Below are positions 1,322 through 5,797 of a stretch of 7,616 nt of DNA, in pieces (positions within the stretch are counted from its first letter, which is position 1; every line of letters begins with the position of its first letter). The stretch lies in the IMG/VR virus record IMGVR_UViG_2568526100_000007. One strand, 5' to 3'. Both the position numbers and the translations under genes were made by a program. Below the pieces are notes generated by a model. It made no database searches. It worked only from the letters and a program-made list of their open reading frames with translations, and was not told where the DNA came from. This stretch comes from a virus (lineage: Duplodnaviria; Heunggongvirae; Uroviricota; Caudoviricetes).

Positions 1322-1681
1322 ATGCTCATAGATTTGGTTTTACCTTACCCGCCGACGGTGAACACTTACTGGCGACGCCGTGGCAGCACATATTTTGTAT
1401 CAAAAGCCGGGGAGCGTTATCGCCGGGCAGTGGCGCTTATTGTTCGCCAGCAGCGGCTGAAATTAAGCCTGTCCGGAAGGCTGGCGATAAAGGTGATTGC
1501 AGAGCCACCGGATAAGCGCCGTCGTGACCTGGACAATATTCTGAAAGCACCACTGGATGCACTGACACATGCGGGGTTGCTTATCGACGACGAGCAGTTT
1601 GATGAAATCAATATTGTGCGCGGACTGCCTGTTCCTGGTGGTCGGTTGGGGATAAAAATCACAGAGCTGGAGTGCGCATGA
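1322..1681 (+). CDS. rusA: Crossover junction endodeoxyribonuclease RusA (Holliday junction resolvase), 119 aa.
   Basis: Protein MLIDLVLPYPPTVNTYWRRRG...DKRRRDLDNILKAPLDALTHAGLLIDDEQ...GGRLGIKITEL matches the recalled RusA pattern (PPS/TxN, RRRDLDN, DALT, GGRL); AAGAGG Shine-Dalgarno 5-6 nt upstream of ATG 1322; conserved position upstream of Q. Confidence 0.88.
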   Translation: MLIDLVLPYPPTVNTYWRRRGSTYFVSKAGERYRRAVALIVRQQRLKLSLSGRLAIKVIAEPPDKRRRDLDNILKAPLDALTHAGLLIDDEQFDEINIVRGLPVPGGRLGIKITELECA

Positions 1682-2367
1682 ATAACCAGTATTTACAGTT
1701 TGTTCGTGAGCAACTCATTATCGCCACCGCCGATTTGAGTGGGGCAACAAAAGGTCAGCTTGAAGCCTGGCAGGAGAATGCCATGTTTGATACAGGGCGT
1801 TACAGACGTAAAAAAATCCGGTACCGCGATAAGGTCACTGGAAAAATGGTAACGCTGGATAATCCACCGATCCCGGGAAAGCAATCGCTGGCGAAAGGTT
1901 CATCAATTGCCCTAGTCAGTCCGGTTGAGTTTTCGACATCATCATGGCGACGCGCCGTTCTGTCTCTTGAAGAGCATCAGAAGGCGTGGGTACTGTGGGT
2001 ATACAGTGAAAATCCGAGTTGGGATTATCAGGTGGTCATTGCGAAATGGGCGTGGGATAAGTTTCAGGTGCATTTTGGCACCAGAAAAATTACAGGGAAA
2101 ACGCTTGAGCGTCTGAAGAAATTAATCTGGCTGGCGGCGCAGGATGTCAGGGGGAGGATTACTGGGTGTGACGTCTACCAGCGACAGGAACTTGCCAGAC
2201 TGTGTGGAGTTAAGTCAGACAACTGGAGCCACAATTATGCGCACTACTGGCGTGATATGTGCGACATTTTTAAGAACCTCGACAACGAATCTTTGATTTA
2301 TACCATGAAAACAAGATCGCAACAAAAAGCGACCTTTTCGCGGCGGGTTATTGCAAAAGTCAATTAA
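1678..2367 (+). CDS. Phage antitermination protein Q-like (late gene regulator), 229 aa from ATG 1678; the track's alternative start is GTG 1672.
   Basis: ATG 1678 overlaps the rusA stop (ATGA at 1678-1681) with GGAG 7 nt upstream; size and position (rusA, then Q, then late region) are typical of lambdoid and Stx phages. The family call rests on synteny and general resemblance, not on a search. Confidence 0.65.
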   Translation: MNNQYLQFVREQLIIATADLSGATKGQLEAWQENAMFDTGRYRRKKIRYRDKVTGKMVTLDNPPIPGKQSLAKGSSIALVSPVEFSTSSWRRAVLSLEEHQKAWVLWVYSENPSWDYQVVIAKWAWDKFQVHFGTRKITGKTLERLKKLIWLAAQDVRGRITGCDVYQRQELARLCGVKSDNWSHNYAHYWRDMCDIFKNLDNESLIYTMKTRSQQKATFSRRVIAKVN

Positions 2368-2379: not shown

Positions 2380-2432
2380 TCGTGTAAATCTGATATTTTG
2401 CTGATTTTGTACACGATGGCAAACTAAACAAA

Positions 2433-2458
2433 GCCTGCTGCTGAGCGGGCTATCTTTT
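2433..2458 (+). terminator. Candidate tR'-like intrinsic terminator: stem GCCTGC / GCGGGC (one G-U pair), 6-nt loop, then TATCTTTTGT.
   Basis: Hairpin followed by a U-rich tract about 70 nt downstream of the Q stop; analogous to the pR'-tR' arrangement of lambda. Confidence 0.3.
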
Positions 2459-2639
2459 GTCGTAAGTTGAGCGAAAGACCATCGATTTTACCTTGCTAAA
2501 ACTATTCTGCTATTGCCGAGTTACCCTTTAGGTAATACACTCATCTTATAAAAGAAAGTGGTTGTTAGCCACATAGGTTAGGATGTGCGCATACTTTGTT
2601 TGTGTGCTTTTTGTGTTTTATCTGTTAACGGAGGGGAGC

Positions 2640-2867
2640 ATGCCGAAATATCTAACACTTGCCGCTCGCGCGATCCTCTCACCTGAGAAGATCATCAAAA
2701 AAATTGCAGATATAGCTTCCATGTGTGATGGAAAAGAAGCTAAGCATGAAAGTGACAAGTTTTTCATTGATAGTAATGGTTCGATGGTTTTGAATCGCAA
2801 CAACGCTGATGTGCAAAAGGCTTTCGCAGCCAATATTAAGGGATTGAGTACTAAGAAGAAGGGTTAG
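2640..2867 (+). CDS. Small basic hypothetical protein, 75 aa (cassette gene 1). Start chosen at ATG 2640 rather than the track's 2583.
   Basis: GGAGG at 2630-2634, 5 nt before ATG 2640; Lys-rich hydrophilic product (MPKYLTLAARAILSPEKIIKKIADI...STKKKG); low-GC; stop TAG 2865-2867 lies 6 nt before the next gene's ATG. Confidence 0.55.
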   Translation: MPKYLTLAARAILSPEKIIKKIADIASMCDGKEAKHESDKFFIDSNGSMVLNRNNADVQKAFAANIKGLSTKKKG

Positions 2868-2873
2868 TCTTCT

Positions 2874-3671
2874 ATGTGGGCTGCGCTGATTGTTATTGTT
2901 TTAGTTTGTGGTTATCACTATACCAACTGCCATTTGCCGTCACGATACCGTCAAAGCAAAGCGATCGGTTGGAATGCATACTTTGATGTTGCACTGAAAG
3001 GTGGTGAGTTTCTCATAAGTGGTATTCTTATCGCTGCCTTATTGGTTGTTGTTCTGTACGCTGGAATGTCACTTTGGAACATTCCAGCGTACTTGTTTGG
3101 TTGGTACGCTCCCTTTACTTTCGCCCATGACTTTCTCAAAATGCAAGTGTTTGGGTTGAGCATGTTCCCTGCTATGTCGATAGCTTTCACTATTATTGTA
3201 AGTATCGGGAAGGCATCAGAGGCAACCAAAAACCATAAAGACCCACAAAAGCGCAAGGCTATTTTTGAAGAAATTGCGGCTCATAGTGCCGTGGAAAATA
3301 TCCTTCTTGAATCAGTTGAGCGTGGATTGTTATTGTTGGTTACACTGAAGTCTCGCAAGGTCTATGTGGGGATGATTGATGAGGCACGTTTCAATCAGTT
3401 AGATACTAACACATTGGTGCTAATCCCTTTTATGTCCGGGTACAGAGATAAAGATACTCTGACTTTTTGTGTTGAGCATAATTATGTGGACTACTACCTT
3501 AGTCAGGGTATCACATTAACTTCTGAGCCATTGTCAGTTTATCAGTTTAGGCATGTGTTGCCCTTCGATCAGATCGAATCTTTTTCGCTGTTTAATGTTG
3601 AAACATTCGAGACTTTCAAGGCAGGTATTGAAGGGAAGAAGGCCACTGAAGTACAGAATCAAACAAGTTAA
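2874..3671 (+). CDS. Membrane protein of unknown function, 265 aa (cassette gene 2): about four predicted transmembrane helices in residues 1-115, then a roughly 150-aa soluble C-terminal domain.
   Basis: Hydrophobic stretches WAALIVIVLVCGY, FLISGILIAALLVVVLYAGMSLW, AYLFGWYAPFTFA and VFGLSMFPAMSIAFTIIVSIG; long ORF in AT-rich DNA, where chance ORFs are unlikely; tightly linked to gene 1; intrinsic terminator just downstream. Confidence 0.7.
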   Translation: MWAALIVIVLVCGYHYTNCHLPSRYRQSKAIGWNAYFDVALKGGEFLISGILIAALLVVVLYAGMSLWNIPAYLFGWYAPFTFAHDFLKMQVFGLSMFPAMSIAFTIIVSIGKASEATKNHKDPQKRKAIFEEIAAHSAVENILLESVERGLLLLVTLKSRKVYVGMIDEARFNQLDTNTLVLIPFMSGYRDKDTLTFCVEHNYVDYYLSQGITLTSEPLSVYQFRHVLPFDQIESFSLFNVETFETFKAGIEGKKATEVQNQTS

Positions 3672-3690: not shown

Positions 3691-3716
3691 AAACCCGCCA
3701 TTGAGCGGGTTTTTTG
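3691..3716 (+). terminator. Rho-independent terminator closing the two-gene cassette.
   Basis: Perfect 8-bp stem AAACCCGC / GCGGGTTT (3691-3698 and 3705-3712), 6-nt loop CATTGA, followed by a T-run; 20 nt after the stop at 3669-3671. Confidence 0.75.
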
Positions 3717-3833
3717 ATGCCCGAAGTGCGGTACATTAAACGCGCTGGTAGTTATTAATATCGGTCTTTCAGCTTGCTGGCTTTTTCGACAAGAGTTATT
3801 GGTATGTCACGTTAACCAGAAAAGGGAAAAGGC

Positions 3834-4031
3834 ATGCTAAAACAGCAGGATATGACCGAAACTGCCAGAGTGGTGTTTAATGAATTAAGCGTCACCGAAC
3901 CGGCGACCGTCGGGGAAATTGCGCATAATACTTACCTTTCACGCGAACGTTGCCAGTTAATACTGACCCAGCTTGTTATGGCGGGTCTGGCAGATTATCA
4001 GTTCGGTTGTTACAGACGCCTTCCTCAGTGA
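3834..4031 (+). CDS. Small hypothetical protein, 65 aa; possible winged-helix DNA-binding protein (a PapI/FaeA-like resemblance is tentative).
   Basis: ATG preceded by a purine-rich AAAAGGGAAAAGG; segment TVGEIAHNTYLSRERCQLILTQLVMAGLA resembles a helix-turn-helix recognition region; lies immediately upstream of the methyltransferase. Confidence 0.5.
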   Translation: MLKQQDMTETARVVFNELSVTEPATVGEIAHNTYLSRERCQLILTQLVMAGLADYQFGCYRRLPQ

Positions 4032-4180
4032 AGGCTTTTTTATTTGTGGTAATGGGCGGCTGGTGGGTGTTGGTAGCACCTGCCAGCCATTCGCTCATGC
4101 TTACTGGTCACAAGCGAACCACGGCCCACTGCTTTAGCGCAAAAGCAGAGTGAGCCTACCAGAGTTACGCTTACTGATCC

Positions 4181-5230
4181 ATGAAAAATACTGTAAAAAT
4201 AAACAGTGTTGATTTAATCAACGCTGATTGCCTGCATTTTATTCAGTCCCTGCCTGATGATTCCATTGACCTGATTGTTACCGATCCGCCGTATTTCAAA
4301 GTGAAACCCGAGGGCTGGGACAATCAGTGGAAGGGCGACGATGATTACCTGAAGTGGCTGGACCAGTGTCTGGCTCAGTTCTGGCGGGTGCTGAAACCTG
4401 CCGGAAGTCTTTACCTGTTCTGTGGCCATCGCCTGGCATCTGATATCGAAATCATGATGCGTGAGCGGTTTAACGTGCTGAACCATATCATCTGGGCAAA
4501 GCCGTCCGGACGCTGGAACGGGTGTAACAAGGAAAGCCTGCGGGCGTATTTTCCGGCCACAGAGCGCATTCTGTTCGCGGAACATTATCAGGGGCCGTAT
4601 CGCCCGAAAGATGATGGCTGTGAGGCGAAGGGCAGGGCACTGAAACAGCATGTGATGGCCCAGCTGATTGCTTACTTTCGTGATGCGCGCGCGGCCCTGG
4701 GGATAACGGCAAAACAGATTGCAGATGCCACAGGAAAGAAAAACATGGTGTCGCACTGGTTCAGTGCCAGTCAGTGGCAGCTACCGAACGAAAGCGATTA
4801 TCTGAAATTACAGTCGCTGTTTGCCCGGGTGGCAGAAGAGAAACATCAGCGGGGAGAACTGGAAAAGTCCCATTACCAACTGGTCAGCACATACAGTGAG
4901 CTGAACCGGCAGTATGCGGAGCTGCTGAGTGAATATAAACATCTGCGGCGGTATTTTGGCGTGACGGTGCAGGTGCCGTATACCGATGTGTGGACGCATA
5001 AACCGGTGCAGTTCTATCCCGGGAAACATCCGTGCGAAAAACCGGCAGAAATGCTGCAGCAGATAATCAGCGCGAGCAGTCGTCCTGGTGACATGGTGGC
5101 GGATTTCTTCATGGGTTCTGGCTCAACCATAAAGGCGGCTATGGCGCTTGGGCGTCGTGCAATTGGTGTTGAGCTGGAGACCGGACGTTTTGAGCAGACA
5201 GTCAGGGAAGTTCAGGATTTAATCGTTTGA
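4181..5230 (+). CDS. DNA methyltransferase, beta-class N6-adenine/N4-cytosine type (DPPY motif), 349 aa; apparently an orphan phage methylase.
   Basis: Catalytic motif IV IVTDPPYF (nt 4283-4294) near the N-terminus and SAM-binding motif I FFMGSGST near the C-terminus (nt about 5104-5127), the order typical of beta-class amino-MTases; no restriction endonuclease gene in the window. Confidence 0.85.
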   Translation: MKNTVKINSVDLINADCLHFIQSLPDDSIDLIVTDPPYFKVKPEGWDNQWKGDDDYLKWLDQCLAQFWRVLKPAGSLYLFCGHRLASDIEIMMRERFNVLNHIIWAKPSGRWNGCNKESLRAYFPATERILFAEHYQGPYRPKDDGCEAKGRALKQHVMAQLIAYFRDARAALGITAKQIADATGKKNMVSHWFSASQWQLPNESDYLKLQSLFARVAEEKHQRGELEKSHYQLVSTYSELNRQYAELLSEYKHLRRYFGVTVQVPYTDVWTHKPVQFYPGKHPCEKPAEMLQQIISASSRPGDMVADFFMGSGSTIKAAMALGRRAIGVELETGRFEQTVREVQDLIV

Positions 5231-5279
5231 AACGGATGAGATTGCAGAATTAATTACGCACCATTATTATTCTGCTCCC

Positions 5280-5355
5280 GGCCCTTTAGCTCAGTGGTGA
5301 GAGCGAGCGACTCATAATCGCCAGGTCGCTGGTTCAAATCCAGCAAGGGCCACCA
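5280..5355 (+). tRNA. ileZ: tRNA with CAU anticodon, ileX/ileZ-like (tRNA-Ile2 read via lysidine, or formally tRNA-Met), 76 nt.
   Basis: Hand-folded cloverleaf: acceptor GGCCCTT/AAGGGCC, D-stem GCTC/GAGC, anticodon loop CTCATAA, T-stem GCTGG/CCAGC, 3' ACCA; close to the recalled E. coli ileX sequence. Confidence 0.85.
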
Positions 5356-5362
5356 TCACATA

Positions 5363-5439
5363 CCGCCATTAGCTCATCAGGAAAGAGCGCCAGCCTTCGA
5401 AGCTGGCTGCGCGGGGTTCAAGTCCCCGATGGCGGTCCA
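5363..5439 (+). tRNA. argN: tRNA-Arg, anticodon UCG, 77 nt.
   Basis: Hand-folded cloverleaf: acceptor CCGCCAT/ATGGCGG, D-stem GCTC/GAGC, anticodon stem CCAGC/GCTGG with loop CTTCGAA, T-stem CGGGG/CCCCG, 3' CCA encoded. The symbol is assigned by position in the ileZ-argN-argO cluster of Stx phages. Confidence 0.85.
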
Positions 5440-5452
5440 TTATCTGCATCAT

Positions 5453-5529
5453 GCGTTGTTAGCTCAGCCGGACAGAGCAATTGCCTTCTAAGCAATCGGT
5501 CACTGGTTCGAATCCAGTACAACGCGCCA
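5453..5529 (+). tRNA. argO: tRNA-Arg, anticodon UCU, 77 nt.
   Basis: Hand-folded cloverleaf: acceptor GCGTTGT/ACAACGC, D-stem GCTC/GAGC, anticodon stem ATTGC/GCAAT with loop CTTCTAA, T-stem ACTGG/CCAGT, 3' CCA encoded. Confidence 0.85.
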
Positions 5530-5543
5530 CACTTATTTTCCCT

Positions 5544-5570
5544 GGCTCGCTTTTGCGGGCCTTTTTTTTT
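5544..5570 (+). terminator. Intrinsic terminator after the tRNA cluster.
   Basis: Stem GGCTCGC / GCGGGCC (7 bp, one G-U pair), loop TTTT, followed by nine T residues. Confidence 0.6.
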
Positions 5571-5767
5571 AAATGTCTCACAATTCAGACGGTTGACTGT
5601 TGTCTGGTTTGCGGGGAGTTTGTTAAAAGAAACTGGCATGGTGAATCCCCCTGTGCGGAGGGGCAATCAGCGAGTAGGTATATGGGATAATCGCGGATTC
5701 AGGTGCTGGTACTGAATTCACCGGGAGGCACCCGGTACCATGCAATGGCACATAGCGCCACTCTCCA

Positions 5768-5791
5768 GCCCCTCTCCGGAGGGGCTTTCTT
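5768..5791 (+). terminator. Terminator-like hairpin in the intergenic slot upstream of nanS-p.
   Basis: Perfect 7-bp stem GCCCCTC / GAGGGGC with loop TCCG, followed by TTTCTT. Confidence 0.4.
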
Positions 5792-5797
5792 GTGGGC

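What the first reader, a model, noticed from the sequence alone, without database searches (positions are those of the whole stretch)
3834..5230. Orphan DPPY methyltransferase preceded by a small winged-helix-like ORF
The methylase has motif IV before motif I (beta class) and no restriction endonuclease partner in the window, as expected for a phage-borne orphan methylase that protects progeny DNA or has an epigenetic role. The 65-aa ORF about 150 bp upstream has a helix-turn-helix-like segment and could be a controller of the methylase, or an unrelated small regulator.
Basis: partly seen in the sequence, partly recalled or inferred. Interest (0 to 1): 0.4.

Follow-up and report, generated by a model that had tools for sequence, protein, structure and literature searches.

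The report
Promiscuous phage adenine methylase with RNA leader

Summary
There is a 65-aa ORF (3834-4031), a 149-nt spacer, and a 349-aa beta-class methyltransferase (4181-5230, DPPY before FxGxG). No endonuclease lies nearby.

The methylase is not an unknown orphan. It is about 92% identical over its full length to M.EcoGII, the characterised non-specific adenine methyltransferase of E. coli prophages. It sits downstream of antiterminator Q, behind three terminator-like hairpins. The likely role is broad anti-restriction methylation of progeny DNA during lytic growth, with silence in the lysogen.

The small ORF is a real gene under purifying selection and folds as a minimal winged helix. It accompanies the methylase in many relatives, as far out as Vibrio. 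Each also occurs without the other, so a controller role is unproven.

The new result is the spacer. It is more conserved than either flanking gene. It carries helices with compensatory changes and two mutually exclusive pairings. It lies directly upstream of the methylase in 70 of 90 retrieved loci. It matches no Rfam family. In four Vibrio relatives a Mu Com-like zinc-finger ORF lies between this leader and the methylase, which echoes phage Mu com-mom control.

The parts
1672..2367 (+). Antiterminator Q gene. This is context: it defines the start of the late operon that contains the module.
   Evidence: Pfam PF06323 Phage_antiter_Q, E=1.5e-83. Annotated as Q in the 95%-identical E. coli prophage.
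2432..2451 (+). Terminator-like hairpin just downstream of Q, at the position expected for tR'.
   Evidence: Terminator scan. Fold -14.2 kcal/mol, z=-3.6. Assignment as tR' is inferred from lambdoid gene order.
3691..3715 (+). Strong intrinsic terminator (AAACCCGC-loop-GCGGGUUUUUU) at the left edge of the conserved module.
   Evidence: Fold -12 kcal/mol, z=-3.3. An equivalent hairpin with a T run is present upstream of the small ORF in most related loci.
3773..3807 (+). Conserved motif CTTGCTG-N13-(C/A)AGAGTTAY-N-TGTRTGT upstream of the small ORF. Function unexplained.
   Evidence: Nearly invariant across 41 loci from Escherichia to Proteus and Xenorhabdus. It is not called as a sigma-70 promoter.
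3834..4031 (+). 65-aa stand-alone winged-helix protein (phrog_331).
   Evidence: dN/dS 0.05-0.13. A purine-rich AAGG about 8 nt before the ATG is conserved.
4018..4041 (+). Hairpin enclosing the small ORF's stop codon, followed by a T run. It is terminator-like in this window.
   Evidence: Terminator scan. Fold -8.9 kcal/mol, z=-2.65, with 3 of 200 shuffles folding at least as well. A hairpin is kept at this place in relatives with different stem sequences, but the T tail is present only in some.
4039..4186 (+). Conserved structured leader RNA of the methylase. P1 is 4058-4069/4077-4088. P2 is 4091-4099/4109-4117. P3 is 4123-4129/4150-4156 with inner hairpin 4131-4136/4141-4146. Alternative long-range helices are P0 (4045-4049/4108-4112) and P1a (4052-4056/4094-4098). 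A possible junction helix is 4053-4057/4124-4128.
   Evidence: More conserved than the flanking genes. 86-96% of cells are paired against 25-49% in slid controls, and 9-10 pairs show compensatory change. The covariance model finds one copy per locus, on the + strand, directly upstream of the methylase or com in 70 of 90 retrieved loci. MFE z=-4.0. No Rfam match.
4181..5230 (+). 349-aa beta-class N6-adenine methyltransferase of the M.EcoGII family. DPPY is at 4283-4294 and FxGxG at 5108-5122.
   Evidence: 323/350 identical to the M.EcoGII sequence from PMC11551740 supplement file 5.

Best explanation
The window is the early part of the late operon of a lambdoid prophage: DUF968, RusA, Q, cargo genes, three tRNAs, then a sialate-esterase-like gene. 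In a near-identical E. coli prophage, lysis and terminase genes follow.

The 349-aa gene is a member of the M.EcoGII family. These are beta-class enzymes that put N6-methyl groups on adenines in any sequence context. By homology (inferred, not assayed here), it methylates replicating phage DNA heavily once Q lets RNA polymerase read through the terminators at about 2450, 3715 and 4040. Progeny genomes would then resist many adenine-sensitive restriction systems in the next host. In the lysogen the terminators would keep it off, which matters because constitutive expression of M.EcoGII slows host growth.

Two conserved accessories travel with it. The first is a roughly 140-nt structured leader RNA fused directly to its start codon. 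This is shown by conservation, covariation and strict linkage. It most likely tunes translation or stability of the toxic enzyme's message. That role is inferred, and the trigger is unknown. The second is an upstream 65-aa winged-helix protein. It is a real, selected gene and a frequent but dispensable neighbour. It may bind DNA or this RNA, but that is speculative.

Four of the five Vibrio relatives that carry a Mu Com-like zinc-finger ORF have it between the same leader and the methylase. This suggests the cassette is controlled in the manner of phage Mu com-mom.
For: Identity. The protein is 92% identical over 349 aa, including the central target-recognition region, to M.EcoGII. The best phage match is 1720a-02, which the M.EcoGII paper names as carrying a very similar enzyme. 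Homologues at about 93% similarity are listed as 'nonspecific' and gave no methylation motif in lysogens. Reconstructed ancestors of the clade kept non-site-specific activity.

Context. Q lies upstream and tRNAs downstream, with lysis genes following in the related E. coli prophage. The same Q, small ORF, methylase, lysis order is seen in SfV, mEp460, Hafnia, Morganella, Providencia and Citrobacter phages. Terminators are documented.

Leader. Conservation. Structure counts. Covariance model hits. All 43 full-length copies in viral contigs are followed by the methylase. The Vibrio homologues are followed by com-like ORFs.

Small ORF..
Against: No activity or expression data exist for this locus. 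Non-specificity is inferred from 92% identity, and the 26 differences include several in the central domain. The M.EcoGII reference was taken from a machine-read supplement and contains probable reading errors.

The late promoter was not located, so control by Q is inferred from gene order. The hairpin at 4018-4035 is only modestly stable (-8.9 kcal/mol, z=-2.65).

For the leader, forcing either fold did not change the predicted accessibility of the start codon (0.62 against 0.60). No mechanism linking structure to expression was found.

Most leader sequences come from related prophages. Cell counts therefore overstate the number of independent events, and the shuffle control is not a probability.
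Confidence: 0.75

Rival explanations
1. The enzyme is a sequence-specific orphan methylase that is active in the lysogen and has an epigenetic role.
For: Orphan methylases such as Dam and CcrM do have such roles (background in PMC5778455). The closest solved structures are sequence-specific enzymes.
Against: It is 92% identical to M.EcoGII through the central domain. Family members gave no motif in lysogen methylomes. It sits behind three terminator-like hairpins in a late operon.
Confidence: 0.05
2. The winged-helix ORF is the dedicated controller of the methylase. It would repress or activate it by binding DNA near 3773-3807 or the leader RNA.
For: Synteny persists down to 46-53% protein identity, with a constant spacing of 138-153 nt. 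A winged-helix-like ORF also precedes the leader in Vibrio. The ORF is present in 45 of 48 leader-bearing viral contigs. Some winged helices bind RNA or unusual nucleic acids, for example SelB and Z-alpha among the fold matches.
Against: At least 16 loci have leader and methylase with unrelated cargo upstream instead. Three contigs keep the ORF after deletion of the methylase and tRNAs. It is not an Xre-type C protein. No palindromic operator was seen. In this window a terminator-like hairpin separates it from the methylase.
Confidence: 0.3
3. The spacer is conserved for a reason other than RNA structure, such as a promoter or operator, a small peptide, or recent horizontal spread.
For: An ATG at 4052 is invariant and opens a 33-codon ORF in this window. 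The minus strand also folds well, z=-3.0. Many loci are related prophages.
Against: The ORF from that ATG varies from 3 to 45 codons, and single-base indels are common. No promoter-like site was found on the + strand. Helices keep pairing through both-sided changes and through G-U pairs, which would not pair on the other strand. The element is recognisable in Vibrio, where the methylase is only 55-58% identical.
Confidence: 0.1
4. The leader is a static element, such as a processing or stability site or a ribosome standby platform, and not a two-state switch.
For: Forcing either fold gives no consistent change in start-codon accessibility. P0 and P1a vary on one side only in the enteric sequences. 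The P2 covariation alone could explain those changes.
Against: P0 and P1a stay 96-100% paired through those changes, and P0 shows a G-C to A-U change in Vibrio. Vibrio has a different local hairpin that again competes with P0/P1a (read from the sequences). The two folds are close in energy across 64 sequences, mean difference 1.1 kcal/mol.
Confidence: 0.4

Closest known systems
M.EcoGII / M.EcoGI, the non-specific beta-class adenine methyltransferases of E. coli O104:H4 prophages (Murray et al. 2018, PMC5778455)
   Same: Same length (349 aa) and same motif order. About 92% identity over the whole protein. Same kind of prophage. Close similarity to the phage 1720a-02 enzyme that the paper names.
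   Different: There are 26 residue differences, some probably reading errors in the reference I used. Activity was not measured for this allele. The published work does not describe the upstream small ORF or the leader; the term 'upstream' does not occur in the main text.
Phage Mu com-mom: the Com zinc finger binds mom mRNA and activates translation of a toxic DNA-modification enzyme (PMC6483171; PMC3378877)
   Same: A toxic, broad-spectrum adenine-modifying anti-restriction enzyme expressed late and held under tight control. There is a structured mRNA region in front of the modification gene. Vibrio and Shewanella relatives of this methylase have a Com-like ORF immediately upstream.
   Different: This window has no com gene. 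The enzyme is a methyltransferase unrelated to Mom. The leader lies upstream of com in Vibrio, so it is not the Com-binding hairpin. Homology of the RNA elements was not tested.
Hia5, Hin1523 and Nma1821: alpha-class promiscuous adenine methyltransferases that replace mom in Mu-like prophages (Drozdz et al. 2012, PMC3299994)
   Same: Phage-borne, near non-specific m6A methylation that gives resistance to many restriction enzymes.
   Different: The motif order is opposite (alpha class), the sequences are unrelated, and the phage type differs.
Controller (C) proteins of restriction-modification systems
   Same: A small DNA-binding-type protein encoded just upstream of a methylase.
   Different: C proteins are Xre-type helix-turn-helix proteins. 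They bind palindromic C-boxes and time the expression of an endonuclease. Here the fold is a winged helix, there is no endonuclease, no C-box was seen, and the association is not obligatory.
Dam-like GATC methylases of Stx and other lambdoid phages
   Same: Orphan adenine methylases carried by the same phage group.
   Different: They are sequence-specific and belong to a different family. In phage 1720a-02, the separate 'DNA adenine methyltransferase' gene lies in the replication region and not downstream of Q.

Membership tests
M.EcoGII family (beta-class non-specific N6-adenine methyltransferases) | Motif IV (DPPY) N-terminal, central recognition region, motif I (FxGxG) C-terminal | tested here: met
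   DPPY at residues 35-38 and FMGSG at 310-314. PF01555 E=6e-43.
M.EcoGII family (beta-class non-specific N6-adenine methyltransferases) | Full-length similarity to M.EcoGII, including the central domain | tested here: met
   323/350 identical with 2 gap positions. Both proteins are 349 aa. The reference came from a machine-read supplement.
M.EcoGII family (beta-class non-specific N6-adenine methyltransferases) | Encoded on a lambdoid prophage or phage | tested here: met
M.EcoGII family (beta-class non-specific N6-adenine methyltransferases) | [quoted passage not shown] | not testable with these tools
   Needs expression of the gene followed by SMRT, nanopore or LC-MS analysis.
M.EcoGII family (beta-class non-specific N6-adenine methyltransferases) | Silent in the lysogen | not testable with these tools
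   Only inferred, from the position behind Q and three terminator-like hairpins.
R-M controller (C) protein | Xre-type helix-turn-helix fold (Pfam HTH_3 and relatives) | tested here: not met
   The small ORF has no HTH_3 hit. The model is a winged helix.
R-M controller (C) protein | Part of a system with a restriction endonuclease | tested here: not met
   No endonuclease in the window or in the 19.6-kb related locus.
R-M controller (C) protein | Palindromic C-box operator upstream | tested here: inconclusive
   The conserved upstream motif at 3773-3807 is not an evident inverted repeat. Binding was not tested.
TrmB family transcriptional regulators (PF01978), the name NCBI gives many homologues of the small ORF | Score above Pfam's gathering threshold | tested here: not met
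   18.3 bits against a cut-off of 25.6. No NCBIfam hit. Only the general winged-helix fold is shared.
Mu com-mom type control | Com zinc-ribbon ORF directly upstream of the modification gene | tested here: not met
   Absent in the window. Present in 6 of 80 related loci: five Vibrio and one Shewanella. PF10122 scores 33.5 bits for the Shewanella ORF, above the cut-off, and is below the cut-off for the two Vibrio ORFs scanned (18.3 and 13.9 bits).
Any described RNA family (Rfam 15) | Match of 4032-4180 to a covariance model | tested here: not met
   No match with E up to 1 in the window or in four related loci.
Riboswitch-like or other two-state cis-regulatory leader | Conserved structure with covariation in the 5' leader of one gene family | tested here: met
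Riboswitch-like or other two-state cis-regulatory leader | Mutually exclusive conserved folds coupled to an expression platform | tested here: inconclusive
   Two exclusive sets of helices are both conserved and close in energy. No coupling to the start codon was found.
Riboswitch-like or other two-state cis-regulatory leader | A ligand or trans-factor that shifts the fold | not testable with these tools
   Needs in-line or SHAPE probing with SAM, SAH, the winged-helix protein or the methylase.

The most novel reading that the evidence does not exclude
The 140-nt leader is a new class of two-state regulatory RNA dedicated to promiscuous phage adenine methylases. It would switch between a long-range fold (P0/P1a) and a local hairpin (P2). 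The trigger could be the upstream winged-helix protein, SAM/SAH, or methylation of its own adenines by the enzyme it controls. M.EcoGII does methylate RNA. The effect would be to cap production of a toxic enzyme.
Probability: 0.25. Interest if true: 0.7.

Novelty: new member of a known kind. Interest (0 to 1): 0.42.

Why it matters
The methylase itself adds little. It is one more allele of an enzyme already sold as a reagent.

The value lies around it. M.EcoGII-type enzymes are toxic when expressed freely, and how phages restrain them has not been described. A conserved structured leader fused to the gene was found from Escherichia to Vibrio. It is joined in some Vibrio relatives by a Com-like zinc finger and in many lineages by a small winged-helix protein. 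Together these give a concrete, testable regulatory cassette.

If the leader is a switch, it would be a new cis-regulatory RNA class in very common prophages, including Shiga-toxin phages. It might also help explain why clones that express the gene constitutively are unstable.

Tried and rejected
1. Solved structures by sequence gave only distant beta-class methylases, none with the central domain.
2. NCBIfam gave no family-level assignment for either protein.
3. PADLOC gave a generic Type II methylase model only. The small ORF and the two upstream cargo ORFs had no credible defence-system hit: none for the cargo ORFs, and one negligible 13-bit match for the small ORF.
4. The sigma-70 scan found no + strand promoter between Q and the tRNAs. 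Neither the late promoter nor a promoter for the small ORF could be placed. By-eye attempts to read 3773-3807 as a sigma-70, sigma-54, LexA or IHF site failed.
5. A peptide encoded in the spacer was rejected. The ORF from the invariant ATG is 3-45 codons long across relatives.
6. A transcription attenuator in the leader was rejected by eye. No leader helix is followed by a U run.
7. Start-codon masking by one of the two folds was tested with constrained partition functions on 64 sequences and showed no consistent difference. The pairing of UUGUGG with the start codon in this window's MFE fold did not appear conserved when checked by eye in relatives.
8. A repeated CAGAGTTA box upstream of both genes is absent in Morganellaceae and varies elsewhere, so it was dropped (by eye).
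9. Fold searches for the small protein gave only generic winged-helix matches, and DpnI was not among the matches listed. They neither support nor exclude an m6A-sensing role.
10. Text searches for the leader sequence and for the methylase sequence found no paper. The Pas sRNA preprint concerns other prophage regions.

Full report
**What is in the window.** The window is the region around the antiterminator of a lambdoid prophage. On the + strand it carries:
- a DUF968/HNH-like gene (314-1309), RusA (1322-1681) and antiterminator Q (1672-2367, PF06323, E=1.5e-83);
- two low-GC ORFs without Pfam hits (about 2583-2867 and 2874-3671);
- the 65-aa ORF (3834-4031) and the 349-aa methyltransferase (4181-5230);
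- three tRNAs (5280-5529) and an STnc100 sRNA match (5607-5797);
- an esterase gene that runs off the window's end.

The best E. coli genome match is 95% identical over the whole window. There the region continues into holin, lysozyme, spanin and terminase genes. The finding therefore lies at the start of the late operon.

**Check of the observation.** DPPY is at residues 35-38 and FMGSG at 310-314, which is the beta-class order. Pfam N6_N4_Mtase matches at E=6e-43. No endonuclease is present in the window or in the 19.6-kb related locus. The small ORF ends 149 nt before the methylase start.

**What the methylase is.** The best phage match of 3700-5300 is Escherichia phage 1720a-02, followed by many Stx2 phages, phiP27 and others, always annotated as a DNA methylase. 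The paper describing M.EcoGII states that it has 349 residues, lies on a prophage, belongs to a very large family in E. coli prophages, and has a very similar relative in phage 1720a-02 (PMC5778455).
- I took the M.EcoGII sequence from a supplement of PMC11551740. The window's protein is 323/350 identical to it across the whole length, central domain included.
- That supplement was read by machine and shows likely errors. For example, it gives NHHIWA where every natural homologue here has NHIIWA. The true identity is probably a little higher.
- M.EcoGI and M.EcoGII are 333/349 identical and both non-specific. O111 homologues at about 93% similarity are listed as non-specific and gave no motif in lysogen methylomes (PMC6602927).
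- Reconstructed ancestors of the clade kept non-site-specific activity (PMC11551740).

So the enzyme is a new allele of a known, characterised kind. Its non-specificity here is inferred, not shown.

**How it is probably expressed.** Between Q and the methylase there are three hairpins followed by T runs:
- 2432-2451, -14.2 kcal/mol;
- 3691-3715, -12 kcal/mol;
- 4018-4035, -8.9 kcal/mol, z=-2.65, the weakest of the three.

A fourth follows the tRNAs (5544-5561). By the established logic of lambdoid late operons, only Q-modified polymerase would pass these. This fits the reported silence of M.EcoGII in lysogens and its toxicity when expressed constitutively. I could not locate the late promoter, so this step is inference.

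**The small ORF.** It is a real gene.
- Homologues occur in 57 phage records, down to 48% identity in Morganella and Providencia phages.
- More than 300 protein clusters match it. Many are labelled 'TrmB family transcriptional regulator' by NCBI, although the Pfam score is below threshold.
- It belongs to phrog_331, function unknown.
- dN/dS against close relatives is 0.05-0.13.

In SfV, mEp460, Hafnia yong2, Morganella IME1369_02, Providencia PSTRCR_117lys, Citrobacter phiNP and others the order is always Q, small ORF, a spacer of 138-153 nt, then the methylase.

The link is not obligatory. Of 80 methylase loci from one genome per species, 40 have a detectable homologue upstream. At least 16 loci that have the methylase and its leader carry unrelated cargo there instead. 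Three viral contigs keep the ORF although the methylase and tRNAs are deleted. It is not a C protein: the fold is wrong, there is no endonuclease, and no palindromic operator is evident.

**The spacer is the unexpected part.** In a first alignment of ten phages, the 149-nt spacer was visibly better conserved than either flanking gene. Against the Morganella phage, the core of the spacer is 75% identical. The small ORF is 47% and the methylase gene 62% identical at the nucleotide level.
- A profile of the spacer finds it directly upstream of the methylase start in 55 of the 80 genome loci, whether or not the small ORF is present.
- In viral contigs, all 43 full-length copies are followed by the methylase.
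- A 64-sequence alignment shows helices that keep pairing through changes on both sides. P1 has G-C in 54 sequences and A-U in 7. One P2 pair has C-G 26, A-U 11, U-A 10 and U-G 4; another has U-A 47 and C-G 15. P3 has G-C 43, A-U 9 and G-U 9.
- 86-90% of cells are paired, against 25-49% when partners are slid by one to three columns.
- G-U pairs indicate that the + strand is the folded one. The + strand also folds better than the minus strand (z=-4.0 against -3.0).

A covariance model built from 66 sequences finds exactly one strong hit per locus in 70 of 90 retrieved loci. All hits are on the + strand and end at the start codon. On its alignment 96% of cells pair, and nine pairs show compensatory change. 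That alignment is fitted to the structure, which inflates the figure somewhat.

Rfam has no match at E up to 1 in the window or in four relatives. No paper in the library contains the sequence. The ORF opened by the invariant ATG at 4052 is 3-45 codons long in relatives, so the conservation is not due to coding.

**Two folds.** RNAalifold proposed long-range helices P0 (UGUGR with UCACR) and P1a (AUGGG with CUCAU), which extend P1. They cannot coexist with P2, which uses the same 3' segments.
- P0 and P1a are 99-100% paired in the enteric alignment, but vary on one side only, always in wobble-compatible ways.
- In the Vibrio sequences one P0 pair changes from G-C to A-U.
- Read from the sequences, Vibrio carries a different local hairpin that again overlaps the P0/P1a partners.
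- With either fold enforced, the ensemble energies differ by only 1.1 ± 3.1 kcal/mol across 64 sequences.

This pattern is what a switch would look like. However, the one-sided changes may be by-products of P2 covariation. I also found no consistent effect of either fold on the accessibility of the start codon. I therefore regard the structured leader as well supported and the switch as a hypothesis.

**The Vibrio clue.** In four Vibrio loci, the same leader (60-68 bits with the model) is followed not by the methylase but by a 36-42-aa ORF with two CxxC pairs. The methylase comes after that, and a winged-helix-like ORF lies upstream of the leader. The equivalent Shewanella ORF matches Pfam 'Mu-like prophage protein Com' above threshold, at 33.5 bits. 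Two of the Vibrio ORFs were scanned and score below the cut-off (18.3 and 13.9 bits). Six of the 80 loci have such an ORF.

In phage Mu, Com binds mom mRNA and activates translation of Mom. Mom is a toxic adenine-modifying enzyme that protects phage DNA from many restriction enzymes (PMC6483171, PMC3378877). In Mu-like prophages of Haemophilus and Neisseria, promiscuous alpha-class adenine methylases sit in mom's place (PMC3299994). The M.EcoGII family therefore looks like a functional counterpart of Mom. At least in some lineages it has comparable post-transcriptional control. This is an analogy. The window has no com gene, and the leader is not the Com-binding site.

**Verdict.** The finding as written is confirmed but ordinary. 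It is an M.EcoGII-family orphan methylase in the late operon of a lambdoid prophage. The 'controller' idea for the small ORF remains open and is weakened by the cases where each gene occurs alone. The result worth following up is the undescribed structured leader, strictly linked to this methylase family from Enterobacterales to Vibrionaceae.

Noticed in passing
window 5607-5797 (+): Full-length match to the STnc100 sRNA family (RF02076, 134 bits, E=3e-30), just downstream of the tRNA cluster and its terminator.
   Followed up: no
window 5280-5529 (+): Three tRNA genes with anticodons CAT, TCG and TCT. The first is called Met by ARAGORN but is annotated tRNA-Ile in RefSeq and phage records. 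This is the tRNA trio seen in the matching Stx phage records.
   Followed up: partly
window 2583-2867 and 2874-3671 (+): Two low-GC (about 41%) ORFs inserted between Q's terminator and the conserved module. The 265-aa one is phrog_3630 (unknown function), has a hydrophobic N-terminal half, and has no Pfam, NCBIfam or PADLOC hit. It looks like a moron cargo gene. Related phages carry other cargo, or none, at this place.
   Followed up: partly
window 3773-3807 (+): Motif CTTGCTG-N13-(C/A)AGAGTTAY-N-TGTRTGT, nearly invariant upstream of the small ORF in 41 loci from Escherichia to Proteus and Xenorhabdus. It always lies shortly after an intrinsic terminator. It does not fit a sigma-70 promoter and is not an obvious palindrome.
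   Followed up: partly
window 4176-4179; alignment A2 columns about 206-209: A GATC (Dam site) lies one or two bases before the methylase start codon in most leaders. There is no Shine-Dalgarno sequence at normal spacing in the enteric versions. Morganellaceae versions have AAGG 13-15 nt upstream.
   Followed up: no
window 4052-4075; 25 of 66 leaders in A4: The invariant ATG opens a 7-codon frame, MGGWWVL-stop, with two adjacent Trp codons in 25 of the 66 aligned leaders. This is probably a by-product of the P1 stem sequence, and there is no ribosome-binding site in front of it.
   Followed up: partly
L095, L139, L165 (viral contigs): Deletion variants. The small ORF, its hairpin and the first 30 or so bases of the leader are kept. 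The sequence then jumps, after about 70 unrelated bases, to the region downstream of the tRNAs (window 5566 onward). The methylase and tRNAs are lost together.
   Followed up: partly
L071, L073, L077, L078, about 2650-2900: A second conserved stretch, CCTTGAGTACCTGAGAC...GAGAGGAAGC, occurs in Vibrio and Psychromonas loci. It lies upstream of the leader in L071 and L073, and upstream of the methylase in L077 and L078, which lack the leader.
   Followed up: no
L015 2002-2129: A weak second partial copy of the leader's 5' half (nhmmer 24.8 bits; covariance model E=0.73) lies about 830 nt upstream of the real one in Trabulsiella.
   Followed up: no
window about 6019 to the window end (+): An ORF that runs off the window end, so it is not listed by the ORF tool. 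It corresponds to the SASA-family carbohydrate esterase (NanS-p-like) of the related E. coli prophage.
   Followed up: partly
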